This document shows positions 3,050-64,000 of a DNA stretch of 64,000 nucleotides, piece after piece. Each line of letters starts with the position of its first letter. The first letter of the stretch is position 1. This stretch comes from Escherichia coli. GTDB lineage: Bacteria; Pseudomonadota; Gammaproteobacteria; Enterobacterales; Enterobacteriaceae. The notes below the pieces were generated by a model. That model saw only the letters and a program-made list of their open reading frames with translations, had not been told where the DNA came from and made no database searches. Where the stretch lies: the NCBI RefSeq assembly GCF_041248615.1, contig NZ_CP158426.1; one strand, given 5' to 3'. The position numbers and the translations under genes were made by a program.

Positions 3050-3598
3050 TTACCACTCCCAGACTTTCGACGGTGTAACCACCGCAGGCAGTGGGATATC
3101 CCACTCTTCAACGGGGAGTTTTTCCACCAACTGACAATCATGCGCATAACCCACCGGTTGCATTTTATAGTGCTGCCAGTTTTGTAAGGTCCGATCATAA
3201 AAACCTCCGCCCATTCCCAGGCGCTGACCGTACTCATCAAAGGCGACCAGGGGGGTGATCAGGACGTCTAATCGGGAAAGGGGGAGCACGTCACGCACAT
3301 CCAATTTTGGCTCATGGATCTTCAACCTGTTCATCACCAGTTCGCTTTGCGGATGGTAATTCAGGAACAGCAAATTACCGGCACTAAAGGGATGCAAAAC
3401 TGGAAGATATACGCGCTTACCGGCGCGCCAGAGTTGTTCTATGAGTGGCTGGGTGTCGAGTTCGCCATCAAAAGAGAGGAATACAGCGACCGTATGTGCC
3501 ATCACCACCGGGGGATAAGTCATCATCCGGGTAGCGGCTTGTTGACCCATTTCCTGCTGTTGTTCCGGCGTTAACGCACGACGACGTTGCCGAATCAT
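3050..3598 (-). CDS. ygfA: 5-formyltetrahydrofolate cyclo-ligase
   Basis: ORF track 3050..3796; start refined to MIRQRRRALTPEQ (182 aa) because the upstream part of the ORF overlaps 6S RNA. Confidence 0.9.
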   Translation of the reverse strand: MIRQRRRALTPEQQQEMGQQAATRMMTYPPVVMAHTVAVFLSFDGELDTQPLIEQLWRAGKRVYLPVLHPFSAGNLLFLNYHPQSELVMNRLKIHEPKLDVRDVLPLSRLDVLITPLVAFDEYGQRLGMGGGFYDRTLQNWQHYKMQPVGYAHDCQLVEKLPVEEWDIPLPAVVTPSKVWEW

Positions 3599-7499: not shown

Positions 7500-7521
7500 A
7501 GGCGGTTTTAAGGAATAAACA

Positions 7522-8724
7522 ATGCAAAGTGTTGATGTAGCCATTGTTGGTGGCGGCATGGTGGGGCTGGCGGTTGCCTGCGGCTTACAGGGGAGCGGCT
7601 TACGCGTTGCCGTACTGGAGCAGCGCGTACCGGAACCTCTGGCGGCGGATGCACCACCACAACTGCGCGTTTCGGCTATCAATGCCGCCAGCGAAAAATT
7701 ACTCACCCGTCTTGGCGTCTGGCAGGACATTCTCTCTCGTAGGGCCAGTTGTTATCACGGTATGGAAGTGTGGGACAAAGACAGTTTTGGTCACATTTCG
7801 TTTGACGATCAAAGCATGGGCTATAGCCATCTTGGGCATATCGTTGAAAACTCAGTGATTCACTACGCGCTGTGGAACAAAGCGCAGCAGTCGTCAGATA
7901 TCACTCTGTTGGCCCCCGCAGAATTACAGCAGGTCGCCTGGGGAGAAAATGAAACTTTCCTGACGCTGAAAGATGGCAGCATGTTAACGGCGCGTCTGGT
8001 GATTGGCGCGGACGGTGCTAATTCCTGGTTGCGCAACAAAGCAGATATTCCGCTGACTTTCTGGGATTATCAGCATCACGCGCTGGTAGCGACCATTCGC
8101 ACGGAAGAACCGCATGATGCGGTGGCGCGGCAGGTTTTCCATGGCGAAGGCATTCTGGCCTTTTTACCGCTTAGCGATCCGCATCTTTGCTCAATTGTCT
8201 GGTCACTGTCGCCAGAGGAAGCGCAGCGGATGCAGCAGGCAAGTGAAGATGAATTTAATCGCGCGTTAAATATCGCTTTTGATAATCGCCTGGGCTTATG
8301 CAAGGTTGAGAGCGCGCGTCAGGTGTTCCCACTGACGGGGCGTTATGCGCGCCAGTTTGCCGCGCACCGTCTGGTGCTGGTGGGCGACGCCGCGCATACC
8401 ATTCACCCGCTGGCGGGGCAGGGAGTAAATCTCGGCTTTATGGATGCTGCAGAGCTGATTGCTGAACTGAAACGGTTGCATCGTCAGGGGAAAGACATCG
8501 GGCAGTACATTTACCTGCGCCGGTATGAGCGTAGCCGCAAGCACAGTGCGGCGCTGATGCTGGCTGGTATGCAGGGATTCCGCGATCTGTTTTCCGGTAC
8601 CAATCCGGCGAAAAAACTGCTGCGTGATATTGGTTTGAAACTGGCCGACACGCTTCCTGGCGTTAAACCACAACTTATCCGCCAGGCAATGGGATTAAAC
8701 GATTTGCCTGAATGGCTGCGTTAA
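7522..8724 (+). CDS. ubiI: 2-octaprenylphenol hydroxylase (VisC)
   Basis: 400-aa ORF MQSVDVAIVGGGMVGLAVACGLQ..., FAD-binding GXGXXG motif. Confidence 0.95.
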   Translation: MQSVDVAIVGGGMVGLAVACGLQGSGLRVAVLEQRVPEPLAADAPPQLRVSAINAASEKLLTRLGVWQDILSRRASCYHGMEVWDKDSFGHISFDDQSMGYSHLGHIVENSVIHYALWNKAQQSSDITLLAPAELQQVAWGENETFLTLKDGSMLTARLVIGADGANSWLRNKADIPLTFWDYQHHALVATIRTEEPHDAVARQVFHGEGILAFLPLSDPHLCSIVWSLSPEEAQRMQQASEDEFNRALNIAFDNRLGLCKVESARQVFPLTGRYARQFAAHRLVLVGDAAHTIHPLAGQGVNLGFMDAAELIAELKRLHRQGKDIGQYIYLRRYERSRKHSAALMLAGMQGFRDLFSGTNPAKKLLRDIGLKLADTLPGVKPQLIRQAMGLNDLPEWLR

Positions 8725-24543: not shown

Positions 24544-26061
24544 ATGTCTGAACAACACGCACAGGGCGCTGACGCGGTAGTCGATCTTAACAATGAACTG
24601 AAAACGCGTCGTGAGAAGCTGGCGAACCTGCGCGAGCAGGGGATTGCCTTCCCGAACGATTTCCGTCGCGATCATACCTCTGACCAATTGCACGCAGAAT
24701 TCGACGGTAAAGAGAACGAAGAACTGGAAGCGCTGAACATCGAAGTCGCCGTTGCCGGCCGCATGATGACCCGTCGTATTATGGGTAAAGCGTCTTTCGT
24801 TACCCTGCAGGACGTTGGCGGTCGCATTCAGTTGTACGTTGCCCGTGACGATCTGCCGGAAGGCGTTTACAACGAGCAGTTCAAAAAATGGGACCTCGGT
24901 GACATCCTCGGCGCGAAAGGTAAACTGTTCAAAACCAAAACTGGCGAACTGTCTATCCACTGCACCGAGCTGCGTCTGCTGACCAAAGCACTGCGTCCGC
25001 TGCCGGACAAATTCCACGGCTTGCAGGACCAGGAAGCGCGCTATCGTCAGCGTTATCTGGATCTCATCTCTAACGATGAATCCCGCAACACCTTTAAAGT
25101 GCGCTCGCAGATCCTCTCTGGTATTCGTCAGTTCATGGTGAATCGCGGCTTTATGGAAGTTGAAACGCCGATGATGCAGGTGATCCCTGGCGGTGCCGCT
25201 GCGCGTCCGTTTATCACTCACCATAACGCGCTGGATCTCGACATGTACCTGCGTATCGCGCCGGAACTGTACCTCAAGCGTCTGGTGGTCGGTGGCTTCG
25301 AGCGTGTATTCGAAATCAACCGTAACTTCCGTAACGAAGGTATTTCCGTACGTCATAACCCAGAGTTCACCATGATGGAACTCTATATGGCTTACGCAGA
25401 TTACAAAGATCTGATCGAGCTGACCGAATCGCTGTTCCGTACTCTGGCACAGGATATTCTCGGTAAGACGGAAGTGACCTACGGCGACGTGACGCTGGAC
25501 TTCGGTAAACCGTTCGAAAAACTGACCATGCGTGAAGCGATCAAGAAATATCGTCCGGAAACCGACATGGCGGATCTGGACAACTTCGACTCTGCGAAAG
25601 CGATTGCTGAATCTATCGGCATCCACGTTGAGAAGAGCTGGGGTCTGGGCCGTATTGTTACCGAGATCTTCGAAGAAGTGGCAGAAGCACATCTGATCCA
25701 GCCGACCTTCATTACTGAATATCCGGCAGAAGTTTCTCCGCTGGCGCGTCGTAACGACGTTAACCCGGAAATCACAGACCGCTTTGAGTTCTTTATCGGT
25801 GGTCGTGAAATCGGTAACGGCTTTAGCGAGCTGAATGACGCGGAAGATCAGGCGCAGCGCTTCCTGGATCAGGTTGCCGCGAAAGACGCAGGCGACGACG
25901 AAGCGATGTTCTACGACGAAGATTACGTCACCGCACTGGAACATGGCTTACCGCCGACAGCAGGTCTGGGAATTGGTATCGACCGTATGGTAATGCTGTT
26001 CACCAACAGCCATACCATCCGCGACGTTATTCTGTTCCCGGCGATGCGTCCGGTGAAATAA
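24544..26061 (+). CDS. lysS: lysine--tRNA ligase
   Basis: 505-aa [36 protein letters not shown]... Confidence 0.97.
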
Positions 26062-59824: not shown

Positions 59825-60580
59825 TTGAGTGCGGGACGCCTGAATAAAAAATCTCTGGGTATCGTGATGTTGTTATCGGTTGGACTGCTTTTGGCGGGCT
59901 GTTCGGGTAGCAAATCATCCGATACAGGAACGTATTCCGGCTCCGTTTACACCGTGAAACGGGGGGATACGCTATATCGTATTTCGCGCACCACGGGAAC
60001 CAGCGTAAAAGAACTGGCGCGACTGAACGGCATTTCCCCCCCTTACACCATTGAAGTTGGTCAGAAACTAAAACTGGGTGGGGCGAAAAGTAGCAGTATT
60101 ACACGTAAATCAACCGCCAAATCAACGACCAAAACCGCATCGGTTACACCGTCATCAGCGGTACCGAAATCATCCTGGCCGCCAGTAGGGCAACGTTGTT
60201 GGTTATGGCCAACGACAGGGAAAGTTATCATGCCGTATTCGACAGCAGATGGCGGCAATAAAGGGATTGATATCTCAGCTCCACGGGGTACACCTATTTA
60301 CGCCGCGGGTGCAGGAAAGGTGGTGTATGTGGGCAACCAGCTGCGTGGCTACGGTAATCTCATCATGATTAAACACAGTGAAGATTACATTACGGCTTAC
60401 GCCCATAATGACACGATGCTGGTAAATAATGGGCAAAGCGTGAAGGCTGGGCAAAAAATCGCCACTATGGGGAGCACGGATGCGGCATCTGTTCGCCTGC
60501 ATTTCCAGATTCGTTACCGTGCAACGGCAATTGATCCGCTACGTTACTTGCCGCCTCAGGGCAGCAAGCCAAAATGCTGA
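59825..60580 (+). CDS. ygeR: LysM/M23 peptidase-family lipoprotein
   Basis: ORF track 59801..60580; start at TTG 59825 (MSAGRLNKKSLGIVMLLSVGLLLAGC, lipobox) after SD gaggaaag; 251 aa. Confidence 0.88.
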   Translation: MSAGRLNKKSLGIVMLLSVGLLLAGCSGSKSSDTGTYSGSVYTVKRGDTLYRISRTTGTSVKELARLNGISPPYTIEVGQKLKLGGAKSSSITRKSTAKSTTKTASVTPSSAVPKSSWPPVGQRCWLWPTTGKVIMPYSTADGGNKGIDISAPRGTPIYAAGAGKVVYVGNQLRGYGNLIMIKHSEDYITAYAHNDTMLVNNGQSVKAGQKIATMGSTDAASVRLHFQIRYRATAIDPLRYLPPQGSKPKC

Positions 60581-60658
60581 TGGCGAATTAATCAGCAGTC
60601 AGCAGCGTGGCACTTGCTAAGGAGAGCGTAAGGTTTATAATGCCTTACGCATCTCGAA

Positions 60659-60732
60659 GCGGGCGTAGTTCAATGGTAGAACGAGAGCTTCCCAAGCTCT
60701 ATACGAGGGTTCGATTCCCTTCGCCCGCTCCA
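60659..60732 (+). tRNA. glyU: tRNA-Gly (anticodon CCC)
   Basis: GCGGGCGTAGTTCAATGGTAGAACGAGAGCTTCCCAAGCTCTATACGAGGGTTCGATTCCCTTCGCCCGCTCCA; cloverleaf with anticodon loop CUUCCCAAG and encoded CCA. Confidence 0.95.
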
Positions 60733-60747
60733 GAATCTCCCCTGGTG

Positions 60748-60770
60748 GAGAAGACTAAAAAAGTCTTCTC
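60748..60770 (+). terminator. hairpin after glyU
   Basis: gagaagac-taaaaaa-gtcttctc perfect stem; no clear T tract. Confidence 0.5.
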
Positions 60771-61229
60771 TGTCAGCAACTTAAACAGTTACCTATTTAA
60801 TTTGCTTAGGAGTTCTACCATTGTGATCCGCCCTTAGTAACTGTCACGTTAAGTTACACGGTGAGATGACAGTATAACCTAACGTTGGCGGCAGTTGCAC
60901 CTCTCACACCGCGATAGCACAACGTGAAGATAAAGCCCATCCTGGCATTGTAATGTCATCGACAGACTGAACACACGCATTTAAGCCCGATGTGCGGCCT
61001 TGTGGCTGCGTAAACAGGTTTATGGTGATATTGGTCCTTGCAAACCATATGCAAGCTCTATCAGCGTTTCAGCCACGCTCCCAACGGGTACACGGTTATC
61101 CTGATAAGGTGTGATCTTTCTGACAATCTGATGAAGTCGCTACGCTCCCGCTTGTTGCTGTATCACCAACGGGGCTTTATGGTTTCTATTGTCTATAATA
61201 ATCTCACAATTCCCCTGCATGAGGTTGAT

Positions 61230-61436
61230 ATGACTGTTAGCTACAAGATTACTTATGAGCATAGAGACGGTGATCAAATTAGAATGGAAGAGGTTTTATT
61301 CCATTCAGAGCATGAACCAACAAAAGATGAAATTCATGATGCAGTAAGAAAAGATACTGTGAGATTTAATTCTCCATCTAATGGAGTAACGGCTGTTTCA
61401 GGGTTTAAAGTGATTTCGGTTGTCCCTGTTCCATGA
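61230..61436 (+). CDS. hypothetical small protein (68 aa)
   Basis: ATG preceded by gagg SD; the longer 132-aa version of ORF 61038..61436 has no convincing start context; convergent hairpin at the 3' end. Confidence 0.35.
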   Translation: MTVSYKITYEHRDGDQIRMEEVLFHSEHEPTKDEIHDAVRKDTVRFNSPSNGVTAVSGFKVISVVPVP

Positions 61437-61447
61437 ATGGTTATAGA

Positions 61448-61464
61448 AGGGGCTGGAAGCCCCT
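61448..61464. terminator. hairpin between the convergent small ORF and lipoprotein gene
   Basis: aggggct-gga-agcccct. Confidence 0.5.
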
Positions 61465-61469
61465 AATTA

Positions 61470-61790
61470 TTACTTCTTAATATCGCCAGTGCATTGATAT
61501 TCGATAGTCACAAGTGTTTGCATACAACCAGATGAAGAAGGTTGTGAACATTGAGAAGTGAATCCACCAAAAGGCTCGGCTCCTGAATATCCCCAAGCGG
61601 CACAACGCGCTTTGGCTGCATTCATGCCTTGTTGTGGATCTACAACAGGACTTTCAAACATACCGTAAGAATAACTCATCCTAACTGTGCCGTCTGATTT
61701 GCTTCCACCAGTTGGAACGAGTTGTTTTTTTGTTGCACATCCAGAAATAATCAATGTTGAAGCAAGTAACAGCATTAAACTTTTGCGCAT
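61470..61790 (-). CDS. cysteine-rich predicted lipoprotein (106 aa)
   Basis: signal peptide with lipobox LIISGC; four further Cys in the mature part; no family recognised. Confidence 0.6.
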   Translation of the reverse strand: MRKSLMLLLASTLIISGCATKKQLVPTGGSKSDGTVRMSYSYGMFESPVVDPQQGMNAAKARCAAWGYSGAEPFGGFTSQCSQPSSSGCMQTLVTIEYQCTGDIKK

Positions 61791-62442
61791 GTAAATAATC
61801 CCAAGAGATAATGGTTATGTATTGATTTAAAGCGTTTTTAGATTAATGCATTAACTTAGCAAAATTAAGTCTTTTCTGATTGTTTGCAGAGTAAAAATGA
61901 GTTGCTTTCGAAATTATTTCGGATGTTTATTGTATTACGGTTTTTCAAACCGTCTAACTATTGTCGCTATTGAATGGGCAATAATAGCAAGAGGATTCAT
62001 TTCGTCATTGGAGGCAACAAAAAGTCGGTAACTGATAGCTACAACGAATGAAGCAATAACGAGAAAGCGGATAGTGCTAAGATGTTTTGAAGATAAATGC
62101 ATAACGCCCCCTAAATGAATGTGAGGGGGATTAAATCATGCAAATTTGTTGTGTGCAATACTGGTAATTTATCCTAATAGTCTACTATTCACCTCAATCT
62201 ACGTCAACCAATATTTGATGTAGATTTGATTTTCTTTTAAAAACAATATTTTGCAATTTGTTGGGTTTTGGGGTTAGGTTGTTTTTTGGACGTTTCCATC
62301 AAGTGTAAAGATACGTTTAGCCTTCATAGTGAGTTCAGTTACTGTCTTTTTCTCTGAAATCGGCGCATACGTGATCATCGCTTAACGAGAAGAGCAGCGC
62401 CGTCAGGTCCATGCAGCGACAATTCTGAAATATCAGGAGGCA

Positions 62443-62994
62443 TTACGCTTCCTGCTCTTTCTTGATACGTTGCACCGTTTGTGTGCTGACACTGAAATCT
62501 TTTGCTACGCTCCGAATTGATCCACCATTCGCGAGAGCGGCAGCAATTCCCGCTCGATCAATTGCTTTTCCATTACCACGTTTTGCTATACGTCCAGCGG
62601 CCTTAGCTGCGGCGATCCCCTCACGCTGGCGCTCAAGCATCATTTCACGTTCCATTTGTGCCACTGCTGCAAGCACTGTGAGCATCATATTCCCTGCGGG
62701 AGAGTTCTTCCCTGTCTTAAAGTCTTCTTTATGGAAATGCACAGACACGCCGCGCTTTGTTAATTGCTCAACCGTTGCCAGTAGGTCGGCTGTATTACGG
62801 CAAAGTCGATCAATACTGTGAACATGCAAAACATCACCTTCCCGCACATAGTTCATCATTGCCTCAAACTGTGGGCGCTGGGTATTCTTGCCTGACGCTT
62901 TATCTTCAAAGACTTTATCAAGAGCTACTCCAGCTAATTGACGGTCTGTGTTTTGTTGCACAGTCGATACCCTAATGTATCCAATATTAGCCAT
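62443..62994 (-). CDS. serine recombinase, resolvase/invertase family (183 aa)
   Basis: N-terminal catalytic motif GYIRVSTVQQNTDRQ with the active-site Ser, FEDKASG, DRLCR, and a C-terminal HTH (GGSIRSVAKDFSVSTQTVQRI). Confidence 0.85.
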   Translation of the reverse strand: MANIGYIRVSTVQQNTDRQLAGVALDKVFEDKASGKNTQRPQFEAMMNYVREGDVLHVHSIDRLCRNTADLLATVEQLTKRGVSVHFHKEDFKTGKNSPAGNMMLTVLAAVAQMEREMMLERQREGIAAAKAAGRIAKRGNGKAIDRAGIAAALANGGSIRSVAKDFSVSTQTVQRIKKEQEA

Positions 62995-63019
62995 TTTCTT
63001 TATTCCTTCTGTGTTGATT

Positions 63020-63130
63020 TGTGTGTAGTGATTATTGATCGTGTTGATTAGGTGTGTAAAGGACTTTTTTCACTACGAAATTCGAAGGTTTTTAGTGTGG
63101 TGATTTAGCCTGCTTTATCACTACACGTCT
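63020..63130. promoter_or_regulatory. structured inverted-repeat region upstream of the recombinase gene (candidate res-like / autoregulatory site)
   Basis: 10-bp perfect inverted repeat gtgtagtgat (63023-63032) / atcactacac (63117-63126), internal cactac/gtagtg motifs, and a central cgaaattcg palindrome (63076-63084). Confidence 0.4.
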
Positions 63131-63516
63131 TGCATGAGAATCATGTAGTTACATTTTGGTAAAATTAGCAAGCTATTAAATAGTGTGTTTATTTTGAAAA
63201 AATAATTTTTTGTTGCATTAAAGGAAACTTGTTCAATAAATGATAGAACGTTTATTGAGCAACAATTTTGCAGTGATGCGCTATATGCCGCATTACATAA
63301 GGCTTTGCTGATGATAATGTAAAAGTGAAGAAAGCTAACATTGCTCTTTTAAGCTACTTTTCATTGAATTTTTAGTATGGAATTACATAGGGATAAACTA
63401 TGAATATTCTATGATTTACACGAGATATTCTTGCTGTTTAATTCCGGCTTTGGAGATCAGGCATTCGCAAGAATACGCTAACGCGTTGCCTGAAAAGCCA
63501 TTGCACATAATAGAGG

Positions 63517-63835
63517 TGAGCGTATAGCGAACTATCAATGTGATCATTGCACGAATGATAATGAGTGGATATAGATTCTATATATCGTTAGATTGTAGTT
63601 TGATAGTTAATGTGTAATGTAGATTGTATGAGCGTATAGCGAATGTTAGTTAGATCAACAACAAACTAACCTTTAAATCTCTTTTATCTTCTCATAGATA
63701 TGGCTATGCGTAGCAACCGAAGGTTAGCCAATCATCTCTATGCAGCCGTAAGGCTGTTTTGCATGTAATAGTTGTTTGTTGTTGTTAGACAGTTACCAAT
63801 TTATAGATCAGAGATAGATGTGAGCGTTGAGCGAT
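63517..63835 (+). repeat. iteron-like direct repeats (3 copies)
   Basis: tgagcgtatagcgaa at 63517-63531 and 63629-63643 (exact), degenerate tgagcgttgagcgat at 63821-63835. Confidence 0.6.
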
Positions 63836-63924
63836 ACACTAATCATAACAACATCTTCTTACTTTTTAGTTAGTTGTTAGTAGGTTATTGTTATGCGCGC
63901 TATTAGCGCATGTATAAAGGTATC

Positions 63925-63999
63925 ATTTTTATCTAAAGGGCTTTAGACATTTTTGATACCTTTTTCATCTCTAAAAAAGTGTAATTTTTATCTAAAGGG
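63925..63999 (+). repeat. short tandem direct repeats atttttatctaaaggg
   Basis: exact 16-mer at 63925-63940 and 63984-63999, with a degenerate copy tttttcatctctaaaaaa between them. Confidence 0.6.
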
Positions 64000-64000
64000 G

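What the first reader, a model, noticed from the sequence alone, without database searches (positions are those of the whole stretch)
61230..61436. Small 68-aa ORF with an SD sequence, convergent with the lipoprotein gene
MTVSYKITYEHRDGDQIRMEEVLFHSEHEPTKDEIHDAVRKDTVRF... starts 6 nt after a gagg SD and ends at a shared hairpin. The ORF-track version (132 aa from 61038) has an N-terminal extension with no start signals, so the short form is more plausible. Function unknown.
Basis: seen in the sequence. Interest (0 to 1): 0.3.

Follow-up and report, generated by a model that had tools for sequence, protein, structure and literature searches.

The report
Real small gene behind structured RNA
The 68-codon reading frame is a genuine, conserved small-protein gene of unknown function at the tRNA-side end of a mobile element in E. 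coli, and just upstream of it lies a ~230-base folded RNA, absent from the RNA family catalogue searched, that may control it.

Summary
The reading frame is ATG 61230 to TGA 61436, with GAGG 5 nt upstream and a shared hairpin at 61448-61464, convergent with a YecR-family lipoprotein gene.

The short form is right. Relatives of 61-69 aa exist only in Enterobacterales, in about 36 clusters. They start at the equivalent methionine, and each of the eight loci inspected has its own ribosome-binding site. dN/dS is 0.05-0.09. The RefSeq 85-aa start and the 132-aa version are cut by stop codons in orthologous loci.

The protein is acidic and soluble. It is predicted as a beta-hairpin, a helix and a strand. 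It matches no known family and no partner gene is conserved, so its function remains inferred.

Context: it is the first gene of a 13.5-kb integrase-bearing, phage-like element. The element sits in tRNA-Gly and is flanked by 22-bp direct repeats.

Unexpected: bases 60963-61192 form a covariation-supported, pseudoknotted RNA with no Rfam 15 match.
- It occurs in about 17% of complete E. coli genomes and in other Enterobacterales.
- It lies downstream of tRNA-Gly, -Leu or -Thr genes and upstream of variable, partly defence-like cargo.
- A terminator-like stem competes with one of its helices, which suggests a leader that gates the small gene.

The parts
61230..61436 (+). Coding sequence of the 68-aa small protein (ORF68), stop codon included
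   Evidence: Sequence read. Homologues of 61-69 aa start at this Met. dN/dS is 0.05-0.09. In-frame stops lie upstream in orthologous loci.
61221..61224 (+). Shine-Dalgarno-like GAGG, 5 nt before the ATG
   Evidence: Seen. Equivalent purine-rich motifs lie 5-9 nt upstream of the ATG in the seven other homologous loci inspected.
61448..61464 (.). GC-rich hairpin between the two convergent genes, a likely bidirectional terminator
   Evidence: Found by the terminator scan. The Pseudescherichia orthologue has a clearer hairpin plus T-run at the same place (alignment).
60963..61192 (+). Conserved pseudoknotted RNA element upstream of ORF68, followed by a U-rich tail. Helix coordinates:
- Px_b: 60963-60968 with 61125-61130
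- Px_a: 60969-60976 with 61109-61116
- P0: 60978-60980 with 61179-61181
- P1: 60983-60988 with 61172-61177
- P2: hairpin at about 60993-61010
- P3: 61023-61030 with 61161-61168
- P4: 61037-61042 with 61050-61055
- P5: 61056-61064 with 61101-61109
- P6: 61071-61074 with 61094-61097
- P7: 61080-61082 with 61086-61088
- alternative terminator-like stem: 61144-61154 with 61167-61175
   Evidence: No Rfam 15 match. Helix variants with compensatory changes are listed. Pair counts: 90.7% of cells paired against 33-38% in slid controls, 15 pairs changed on both sides, covariation score 0.214 against 0.113 (0 of 500 shuffles). Indels of 1 and 2 nt between orthologues exclude a coding function.
60659..60732 (+). 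tRNA-Gly(CCC). Its last 22 nt (60711-60732) are the left copy of the direct repeat that bounds the element
   Evidence: ARAGORN and Rfam. In the identical locus L001, the 22-nt repeat TCGATTCCCTTCGCCCGCTCCA occurs again 13.5 kb away, next to a tyrosine integrase gene.
61470..61790 (-). Convergent YecR-family lipoprotein gene. This cargo slot varies in related elements
   Evidence: Pfam PF13992, E = 1.8e-23. In Klebsiella the same position holds a TIR-DUF3298 protein, and in Pseudescherichia a 367-aa protein of unknown family.
62443..62994 (-). Serine recombinase (resolvase/invertase type) of the element
   Evidence: Pfam Resolvase E = 5.9e-39 and PHROG 125 DNA invertase E = 7.7e-62. A serine recombinase recurs a few kb downstream of the RNA element in related loci.

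Best explanation
SHOWN. ORF68 is a real protein-coding gene, translated from ATG 61230 into a 68-aa, acidic, soluble protein. It belongs to an unnamed family found only in Enterobacterales. It is the first gene at the tRNA-proximal end of a 13.5-kb integrated phage-like element inserted in tRNA-Gly(CCC). Its short transcription unit ends at the hairpin shared with the convergent lipoprotein gene.

INFERRED. Transcription reaches ORF68 through the ~230-nt pseudoknotted RNA at 60963-61192. In that RNA a terminator-like stem (61144-61175, followed by a U-rich tract) is mutually exclusive with helix P1 of the folded domain. The RNA would therefore act as a leader that decides between termination and read-through into ORF68, and into other cargo genes in related elements. 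Transcription may be fed by the upstream tRNA promoter.

SPECULATIVE. The protein has no catalytic or nucleic-acid-binding signature and no conserved partner gene. It most likely works by binding stoichiometrically to a host or phage protein, as a small modulator carried in a cargo slot that elsewhere holds defence-like genes.
For: Real gene:
- 20 hits in an exhaustive HMMER search, including 61-68-aa proteins at 40-68% identity that align from residue 18.
- 36 clusters in a profile search, all from Enterobacterales where the source names an organism.
- Conserved motifs YKITYEH, EPT and ISVVPVP.
- dN/dS of 0.05-0.09.
- A Shine-Dalgarno-like motif in each of the eight loci inspected.
- Stop codons in the upstream frame of orthologues.

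Protein:
- AlphaFold2 model with pLDDT 80.5, strands 3-13 and 16-26, helix 32-44, strand 59-67.
- pI of 4.0-6.1 and negative GRAVY in all 30 members.

Element:
- 22-bp direct repeat of the tRNA 3' end.
- Tyrosine integrase, replication initiator, major head protein and tape-measure-like protein.

RNA:
- Covariation.
- GNRA and UUCG loop swaps in P7.
- G-U pairs only on the + strand.
- The terminator-like stem is predicted, in the local fold, and in several single-sequence folds.
- In the divergent copies L017 and L035, a G-to-C change in the shared 3' strand is compensated in both alternative partners: columns 17/235 and columns 247/275.
- The RNA is on the same strand as a tRNA gene and about 405-450 nt downstream of it in 12 loci.
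- A co-oriented gene follows about 50-120 nt downstream in annotated genomes.
Against: - No transcript or protein data were available.
- No sigma-70-type promoter was found between the tRNA and ORF68.
- The folding energy of the RNA is no better than that of shuffled sequence (z = -0.07).
- The terminator-like stem has a 12-nt loop and an imperfect U-tract.
- A -10-like TATAAT at 61194-61199 could give ORF68 its own promoter.
- The Pseudescherichia copy of the RNA lacks one strand of P3, yet keeps an intact ORF68.
- ORF68 homologues in Serratia, Erwinia and Shimwellia are lone chromosomal genes without the RNA, so the protein does not need it.
- I derived the RNA structure partly from the same sequences on which the pairs were counted.
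Confidence: 0.55

Rival explanations
1. The real product is a longer protein: the 85-aa form from ATG 61179 as annotated in RefSeq, or the 132-aa form from TTG 61038.
For: PGAP annotates the 85-aa form (WP_024017360.1). The frame is open back to 61038 in E. coli. Clusters P0001 and P0002 were called as 85 aa.
Against: - Homologues are 61-69 aa and align only from residue 18.
- The upstream frame carries stop codons in Klebsiella and Pseudescherichia, for example ...FMAAIV*T*EH....
- ATG 61179 is part of helix P0 of an RNA element that is conserved whatever gene follows it.
- Indels of 1 and 2 nt occur in the upstream region between orthologues.
Confidence: 0.04
2. ORF68 is one half of a two-gene module, either a defence system or a toxin-antitoxin-like pair, with the convergent downstream gene.
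For: In mobile-element contexts a convergent gene always follows: YecR-like in E. coli, a TIR-DUF3298 protein with PADLOC TIR hits in Klebsiella, and a 367-aa protein in Pseudescherichia. The slot after the RNA holds defence candidates elsewhere, such as PDC-S32/AbiJ-NTD4.
Against: - The partner is a different, unrelated protein in each genus.
- ORF68 and the YecR-like protein have no PADLOC match.
- Homologues in Serratia, Erwinia and Shimwellia are single genes between housekeeping genes.
Confidence: 0.15
3. The upstream RNA is an independent, trans-acting non-coding RNA of the mobile element that ends at its own terminator. ORF68 is then transcribed separately from a promoter with the -10 TATAAT at 61194-61199.
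For: - A -10-like hexamer (TATAAT, TAAAAT, TAAACT or TAATAT) recurs at a fixed distance after the RNA.
- The RNA forms a closed structure with paired ends.
- The cargo after it is heterogeneous.
- One plasmid copy has no co-oriented gene downstream.
Against: - No -35 element at 16-18 nt.
- The terminator stem and P1 cannot coexist, and both are kept by compensatory change, which is what a switch would show.
- A co-oriented gene follows in nearly all copies.
Confidence: 0.3
4. The ORF is a chance open frame in AT-rich island DNA and makes no protein.
For: - Only about 124 of 5426 complete E. coli genomes carry it, nearly all at 100% identity.
- No family match in Pfam, NCBIfam, PHROGs or PADLOC.
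- Some copies are disrupted by an IS element or by truncation.
Against: Protein-level conservation across at least ten genera with saturated synonymous sites. Length, start, ribosome-binding site and C-terminus are conserved. The structure model is confident.
Confidence: 0.02

Closest known systems
Unnamed 'hypothetical protein' clusters in RefSeq/UniRef, for example WP_024017360.1 (E. coli), WP_257758485.1 (Pseudescherichia), AWL55868.1 (Klebsiella quasipneumoniae) and WP_199016548.1 (Shimwellia)
   Same: These are the same family. They are 61-69 aa and share the YKITYEH...EPT...ISVVPVP pattern.
   Different: None has a name, a Pfam or NCBIfam model, or a tested function. The E. coli entry is annotated with a start 17 codons too far upstream.
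Small phage-encoded host-modulating proteins such as T7 Gp2 (RNA polymerase inhibitor) and phi29 p6
Listeria-Bacteroides repeat / InlB B-repeat domains (Pfam PF09479, PF18998)
   Same: HMMER gives weak multi-stretch hits to large proteins made of such repeats. The N-terminal hairpin YKITYEHRDG...EEV resembles KY.ITF.NEDG...E.EYG.
   Different: The profile-profile comparison gives only 30% probability over 24 columns. There is no Pfam hit even at E = 10. Those domains are extracellular tandem repeats, whereas ORF68 is a single cytosolic domain.
Riboswitch or attenuator-type 5' leaders with competing terminator and anti-terminator helices (general knowledge of the class)
   Same: The upstream RNA has a conserved multi-helix domain, a terminator-like stem that shares a strand with helix P1, and a co-oriented gene downstream.
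   Different: It matches none of the 4227 Rfam families. The downstream genes are unrelated to one another, so a metabolite ligand is unlikely. It belongs to a mobile element and always lies next to a tRNA attachment site. No ligand or factor is known.
Variable 'hotspots' of anti-phage genes in P2 phages and P4-like satellites (recalled from the literature, not read here)
   Same: A fixed position near the attachment site of an integrative phage-like element holds highly variable cargo. That cargo includes defence candidates: PDC-S32/AbiJ-NTD4, a TIR protein, DUF4145 and DUF3800.
   Different: This is a different element family: integrase at the far end, a serine recombinase, and its own capsid gene. 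The hotspot is preceded by a structured RNA. Where a P4-like satellite is present, the RNA lies outside it, beyond its attR.

Membership tests
ORF68 small-protein family (unnamed, Enterobacterales) | Length 61-69 aa with an N-terminal M-x-x-x-[YF]-K-[IV]-x-Y-E-H strand, an E-P-[TS] helix cap and a C-terminal [IV]-[SA]-[VI]-x-P-x-P | tested here: met
   Alignments A2 and A4. The window protein is 40-72% identical to 29 members.
ORF68 small-protein family (unnamed, Enterobacterales) | Purifying selection on the reading frame | tested here: met
   dN/dS of 0.05 (Pseudescherichia), 0.09 (Klebsiella) and 0.08 between those two. Synonymous sites are saturated in more distant pairs.
Listeria-Bacteroides repeat / InlB B-repeat (PF09479, PF18998) | Match to the Pfam model, or a profile-profile match over the whole domain | tested here: not met
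   No Pfam hit at E <= 10 for any of 30 members. hhalign gives 30% probability over the N-terminal 24 columns only.
T7 Gp2-like RNA polymerase inhibitors | Gp2 fold and binding to the beta-prime jaw of RNA polymerase | tested here: inconclusive
Known anti-phage defence system components (PADLOC-DB 2.0) | Match to a defence-protein model, and a conserved partner gene | tested here: not met
   No PADLOC hit for ORF68 or the YecR-like neighbour. The neighbour differs in each genus.
Phage protein families (PHROGs, BFVD structures) | Sequence or fold match to a phage protein family | tested here: not met
   PHROGs gives only a chance-level hit in the non-coding extension. The best BFVD Foldseek E-value is 0.013. 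One IMG/VR hit lies at the edge of a predicted provirus.
Terminator/anti-terminator leader RNA (for the upstream element) | Conserved structured domain supported by covariation | tested here: met
   57 pairs with 90.7% of cells paired against 33-38% in slid controls. 15 pairs have changes on both sides. Covariation score is 0.214 against 0.113 (0 of 500 shuffles).
Terminator/anti-terminator leader RNA (for the upstream element) | Mutually exclusive terminator and domain helices, and regulated read-through | tested here: inconclusive
   The two helices share the strand 61172-61175, and both are kept by compensatory change in L017 and L035. Read-through itself cannot be tested here. The U-tract is imperfect.
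Any Rfam 15 RNA family (for the upstream element) | Covariance-model match | tested here: not met
   No hit at E <= 1 in window 60500-62500 apart from the tRNA and a chance snoRNA hit. No hit at gathering score in eight divergent loci.
Lambda sib-type retroregulation across attP | Integrase gene transcribed towards the attachment site, so that its transcript runs into the structured element | tested here: not met
   The integrase start codon is next to attR, and the gene is transcribed away from it (L001 24118-25338 on the - strand, repeat at 25424-25445).

The most novel reading that the evidence does not exclude
The ~230-nt pseudoknotted element at 60963-61192 is an undescribed class of structured RNA carried by a family of tRNA-integrating phage-like elements of Enterobacterales. 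It would act as a switchable leader, possibly fed by read-through from the host tRNA promoter, that gates expression of whatever cargo sits in the adjacent hotspot. Here the cargo is ORF68. Elsewhere it is a defence candidate such as PDC-S32/AbiJ-NTD4, or a DUF4145 or DUF3800 protein. ORF68 would then be a new small effector under this control.
Probability: 0.35. Interest if true: 0.8.

Novelty: new member of a known kind. Interest (0 to 1): 0.5.

Why it matters
On its own, ORF68 is one more validated small protein. It corrects a RefSeq start codon and defines a family of about 36 clusters restricted to Enterobacterales. That family could be given a model and tested.

The larger point is what sits 38 nt upstream. 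A complex, covariation-supported RNA is present in about one in six complete E. coli genomes, including Nissle 1917, ATCC 25922 and EPEC E2348/69. From the sampled hit lists, it appears to be absent from K-12, and it is absent from Rfam.

The RNA marks the entry to a variable cargo slot of tRNA-integrated elements. If it is a regulatory switch, two things follow:
- It links integration next to a tRNA gene with controlled expression of accessory and defence genes.
- It offers a compact new regulatory part, and ORF68 is a simple single-gene reporter of its output.

Tried and rejected
Searches for the protein that found nothing useful:
- Pfam, NCBIfam, PHROGs and PADLOC scans gave no family.
- The PDB sequence search gave nothing below E = 0.3.
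- Foldseek against viral structures gave nothing significant.
- Homology to Listeria-Bacteroides repeats was suggested by HMMER, but hhalign gave only 30% probability over the hairpin, so I rejected it as a classification.

Context ideas that did not hold:
- Invertible segment: no convincing inverted repeats flank ORF68/yecR or the serine recombinase.
- Phage carriage: there is no DNA match in 50,697 phage records. The single IMG/VR hit is an edge artefact of a neighbouring provirus.

Checks on the RNA that were weak or uninformative:
- The thermodynamic test gave a z-score of about 0 on both strands, so stability alone is no evidence.
- RNAalifold on the plain MAFFT alignment of 20 sequences recovered few helices because the divergent copies were misaligned. 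I assigned helices by hand and by local searches instead.
- A swap test was only weakly discriminating, because many copies share the same helix variant.

Other points:
- I first thought the island boundary was 74 nt after the tRNA (hit H105). That turned out to be an IS1 truncation in that strain.
- Literature searches for the accession, the three tRNA loci and related RNA motifs found nothing relevant.

Full report
**Observation**

The window is E. coli DNA: xdhA, actS and tRNA-Gly(CCC) at 60659-60732, followed by island DNA. The reading frame runs from ATG 61230 to TGA 61436, which is 68 codons. GAGG lies at 61221-61224, 5 nt before the ATG. A GC-rich hairpin at 61448-61464 separates its stop codon from the stop of a convergent gene at 61470-61790. 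That gene encodes a YecR-family lipoprotein (Pfam E = 1.8e-23). The description is therefore accurate. An open frame of this length is common here by chance, so everything depends on comparative evidence.

**It is a gene**

A word-indexed search found only near-identical Escherichia sequences. An exhaustive HMMER search of 1.84 billion representatives found 20 proteins, and a profile search found 36 clusters.
- The family members are 61-69 aa long.
- They come from Escherichia, Klebsiella, Pseudescherichia, Enterobacter, Dryocola, Pantoea, Erwinia, Kalamiella, Serratia, Rahnella and Shimwellia.
- None carries a name or a Pfam domain.
- They share M-x-x-x-Y-K-I-T-Y-E-H, E-E-V-L, E-P-T, an A-V-R-x-D-T-x-R-F helix and a C-terminal I-S-V-V-P-V-P.
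- Between E. coli, Pseudescherichia and Klebsiella, synonymous sites are saturated (pS 0.69-0.75) while pN is 0.14-0.18. This gives dN/dS of 0.05-0.09.

**Start codon**

All full-length relatives align from residue 18 of the RefSeq 85-aa form, which is the Met at 61230. Each of the eight loci inspected has its own purine-rich motif 5-9 nt upstream. In Klebsiella and Pseudescherichia the frame upstream of that Met contains stop codons. Their upstream DNA differs from E. coli by indels of 1 and 2 nt. The ATG at 61179 chosen by PGAP is part of a conserved RNA helix, described below.

**The protein**

All 30 members examined are acidic (pI 4.0-6.1) and hydrophilic. AlphaFold2 with the family alignment gives a confident model (pLDDT 80.5). 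It has a long beta-hairpin at residues 3-26, a helix at 32-44, a low-confidence loop and a C-terminal strand at 59-67.

No comparison identified a known relative:
- Viral structures give nothing significant.
- PDB sequences give nothing.
- Pfam, NCBIfam, PHROGs and PADLOC have no model for it.
- A weak resemblance of the N-terminal hairpin to Listeria-Bacteroides repeats did not survive a profile-profile test, which gave 30% probability over 24 columns.

**Context**

In the identical locus of an O26:H11 genome, the 22-nt 3' end of the tRNA is repeated 13.5 kb downstream, next to a tyrosine integrase gene. Between the repeats lie, in order:
- about 500 nt without genes;
- ORF68;
- the YecR-like gene;
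- a serine recombinase;
- 2.3 kb without ORFs;
- a replication initiator;
- small genes;
- a major head protein;
- a tape-measure-like protein;
- the integrase.

A second island with its own integrase follows.

In Klebsiella and Pseudescherichia, ORF68 homologues occupy the same first position after tRNA-Thr, tRNA-Gly or an attR copy. The convergent neighbour differs: a TIR-DUF3298 protein, a 367-aa protein, or small proteins. In Serratia, Erwinia and Shimwellia the homologue is a lone gene between housekeeping genes. No partner gene is conserved.

ORF68 occurs in about 124 of 5426 complete E. coli genomes, nearly all at 100% identity. Some metagenomic copies are cut by an IS element exactly at the ATG.

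**The upstream RNA**

Aligning the orthologous loci showed that the non-coding stretch before ORF68 is better conserved than ORF68 itself. The stretch occurs in 906 of 5426 E. coli genomes, and nothing is annotated under the match in the hits inspected. Examples include Nissle 1917, ATCC 25922 and E2348/69, and there are also 42 plasmid sites. A motif scan found it in 20 species genomes. Eighteen are Enterobacterales. The other two are a Collinsella MAG and a Chryseobacterium assembly, which I took to be contaminant contigs without testing this. It matches no Rfam 15 family and no phage record.

Its helices show many compensatory changes:
- P3: TGGTGATA/TATCACCA, TAGTGGTA/TACCACTA, TGGTGGT/ACCACCA, TGATGGGA/TCCCATCA and TGTTGGG/CCCAGCA.
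- P4: CTTGCA/TGCAAG, CCTACA/TGTAGG, CCGG/CCGG and CCAGTCC/GGGCTGG.
- P2: a hairpin of variable length.
- P6: AGCC/GGTT against GCTC/GAGC.
- P7: capped by GAAA, GCAA or UUCG loops.
- Px: a 5' strand that pairs across P1 to make a pseudoknot. Variants are GATCACAC/GTGTGATC, TTAGTGA/TCACTAA, TCAGTGAA/TTCACTGA and TTAACCGTTC/GAACGGTTAA.

On a 16-sequence alignment, 90.7% of cells pair, against 33-38% when partners are slid by 1-3 columns. Fifteen pairs change on both sides, and the covariation score is 0.214 against 0.113 in shuffles (0 of 500). Three caveats apply. I derived the structure from these sequences. The sequences are related to one another. The folding energy is not exceptional. G-U pairs fit only the + strand.

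**A possible switch**

The strand 61172-61175 belongs to helix P1, where it pairs with 60983-60988. It also belongs to a local stem (61144-61154 with 61167-61175) that is followed by UUUAUGGUUUCUAUU. In the two most divergent copies, a G-to-C change in this shared strand is compensated in both partners. That is the pattern expected if both conformations matter.

Position and orientation are consistent with a leader:
- In 12 loci the RNA lies about 405-450 nt downstream of tRNA-Gly(CCC), tRNA-Leu(CAA) or tRNA-Thr(CGT), on the same strand. In other loci it lies just after an attR copy of such a tRNA.
- A co-oriented gene starts about 50-120 nt after it.
- These downstream genes are unrelated to one another and include defence candidates: PDC-S32/AbiJ-NTD4, DUF4145 and DUF3800.

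I therefore infer a leader that gates a cargo hotspot. ORF68, with its own terminator, is the single gated gene in this window. Read-through from the tRNA promoter is a further inference. No other promoter was found, and the hairpin after the tRNA lacks a U-run. The main rival is an independent non-coding RNA followed by a weak promoter with the -10 at 61194-61199.

**Function of ORF68**

Nothing shown here fixes the function. The protein is acidic and has no enzymatic or nucleic-acid-binding signature. It has no conserved partner, lies in a cargo slot of a phage-like element, and also exists as lone chromosomal copies. Together these point most plausibly to a small protein that acts by binding another protein. 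I hold this loosely.

**Verdict**

The finding is a real and correctly delimited small gene of an uncharacterised family. By itself it is of modest interest. The adjacent RNA is the more unusual object and raises the value of the locus.

Noticed in passing
window 60963-61192 (+): A ~230-nt pseudoknotted, covariation-supported RNA element with no Rfam 15 match. It occurs in 906 of 5426 complete E. coli genomes and in other Enterobacterales. It lies downstream of tRNA-Gly, -Leu or -Thr genes and upstream of variable cargo genes.
   Followed up: yes
window 61179-61229: RefSeq/PGAP annotates this gene as 85 aa (WP_024017360.1), starting at ATG 61179. That ATG is part of an RNA helix, and the 17-codon extension is interrupted by stop codons in orthologous loci.
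   Followed up: yes
window 60711-60732; L001 11932-11953 and 25424-25445: A 22-bp direct repeat of the tRNA-Gly 3' end bounds a 13.5-kb phage-like element. The element carries a tyrosine integrase at the far end, a serine recombinase, a replication initiator, a major head protein and a tape-measure-like protein. A second island with its own integrase follows in tandem.
   Followed up: partly
window 60779-60796; L001 25359-25376: An 18-mer, ACTTAAACAGTTACCTAT, lies about 47 nt after the tRNA end. It recurs at 89% identity about 47 nt before the right-hand repeat. These could be arm-type integrase binding sites.
   Followed up: no
window 62995-64000 (continues to L001 16491): About 2.3 kb after the serine recombinase has no ORF of 50 aa or more. 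Inside the window this stretch contains a palindrome with 23-nt arms at 63916-63963. Just beyond the window it contains a perfect 23-nt tandem repeat (L001 15368-15413).
   Followed up: no
L004 and L005 (metagenome contigs), position equivalent to window 61232: An IS3-family element ends exactly at the ORF68 start codon. It replaces the ATG and everything upstream, while the rest of the gene and yecR are unchanged.
   Followed up: partly
L006 1-209 (metagenome contig, coverage about 2): The C-terminal half of ORF68, from EIHDAVRK onward, is fused in frame to an unrelated N-terminal half (MDSKEASILREFCHLSESDLMY). This could be a real mosaic or an assembly chimera.
   Followed up: no
L045 (Raoultella) 7503-7524 and L043 (Buttiauxella) 3142-3183: These copies keep only the last 50-75 nt of the RNA element, each followed by a cargo gene. 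In L045 the partial copy lies 1.7 kb downstream of a complete copy. This hints at cassette-like insertion or recombination within the 3' end of the element.
   Followed up: partly
L007 5760-5960 (Pseudescherichia): This copy of the RNA lacks the 5' strand of helix P3 through a 12-nt deletion, and it has mismatches in Px. ORF68 downstream is nevertheless intact and under purifying selection.
   Followed up: partly
L015 6253-7077, L018 6272-7417, L051 3352-3987, L053 3910-4680: The genes near the RNA element in other genomes include a PADLOC candidate defence gene (PDC-S32/AbiJ-NTD4), a TIR-DUF3298 protein (convergent, just beyond ORF68), a DUF4145 protein and a DUF3800 protein. The position behaves like a defence and cargo hotspot.
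   Followed up: partly
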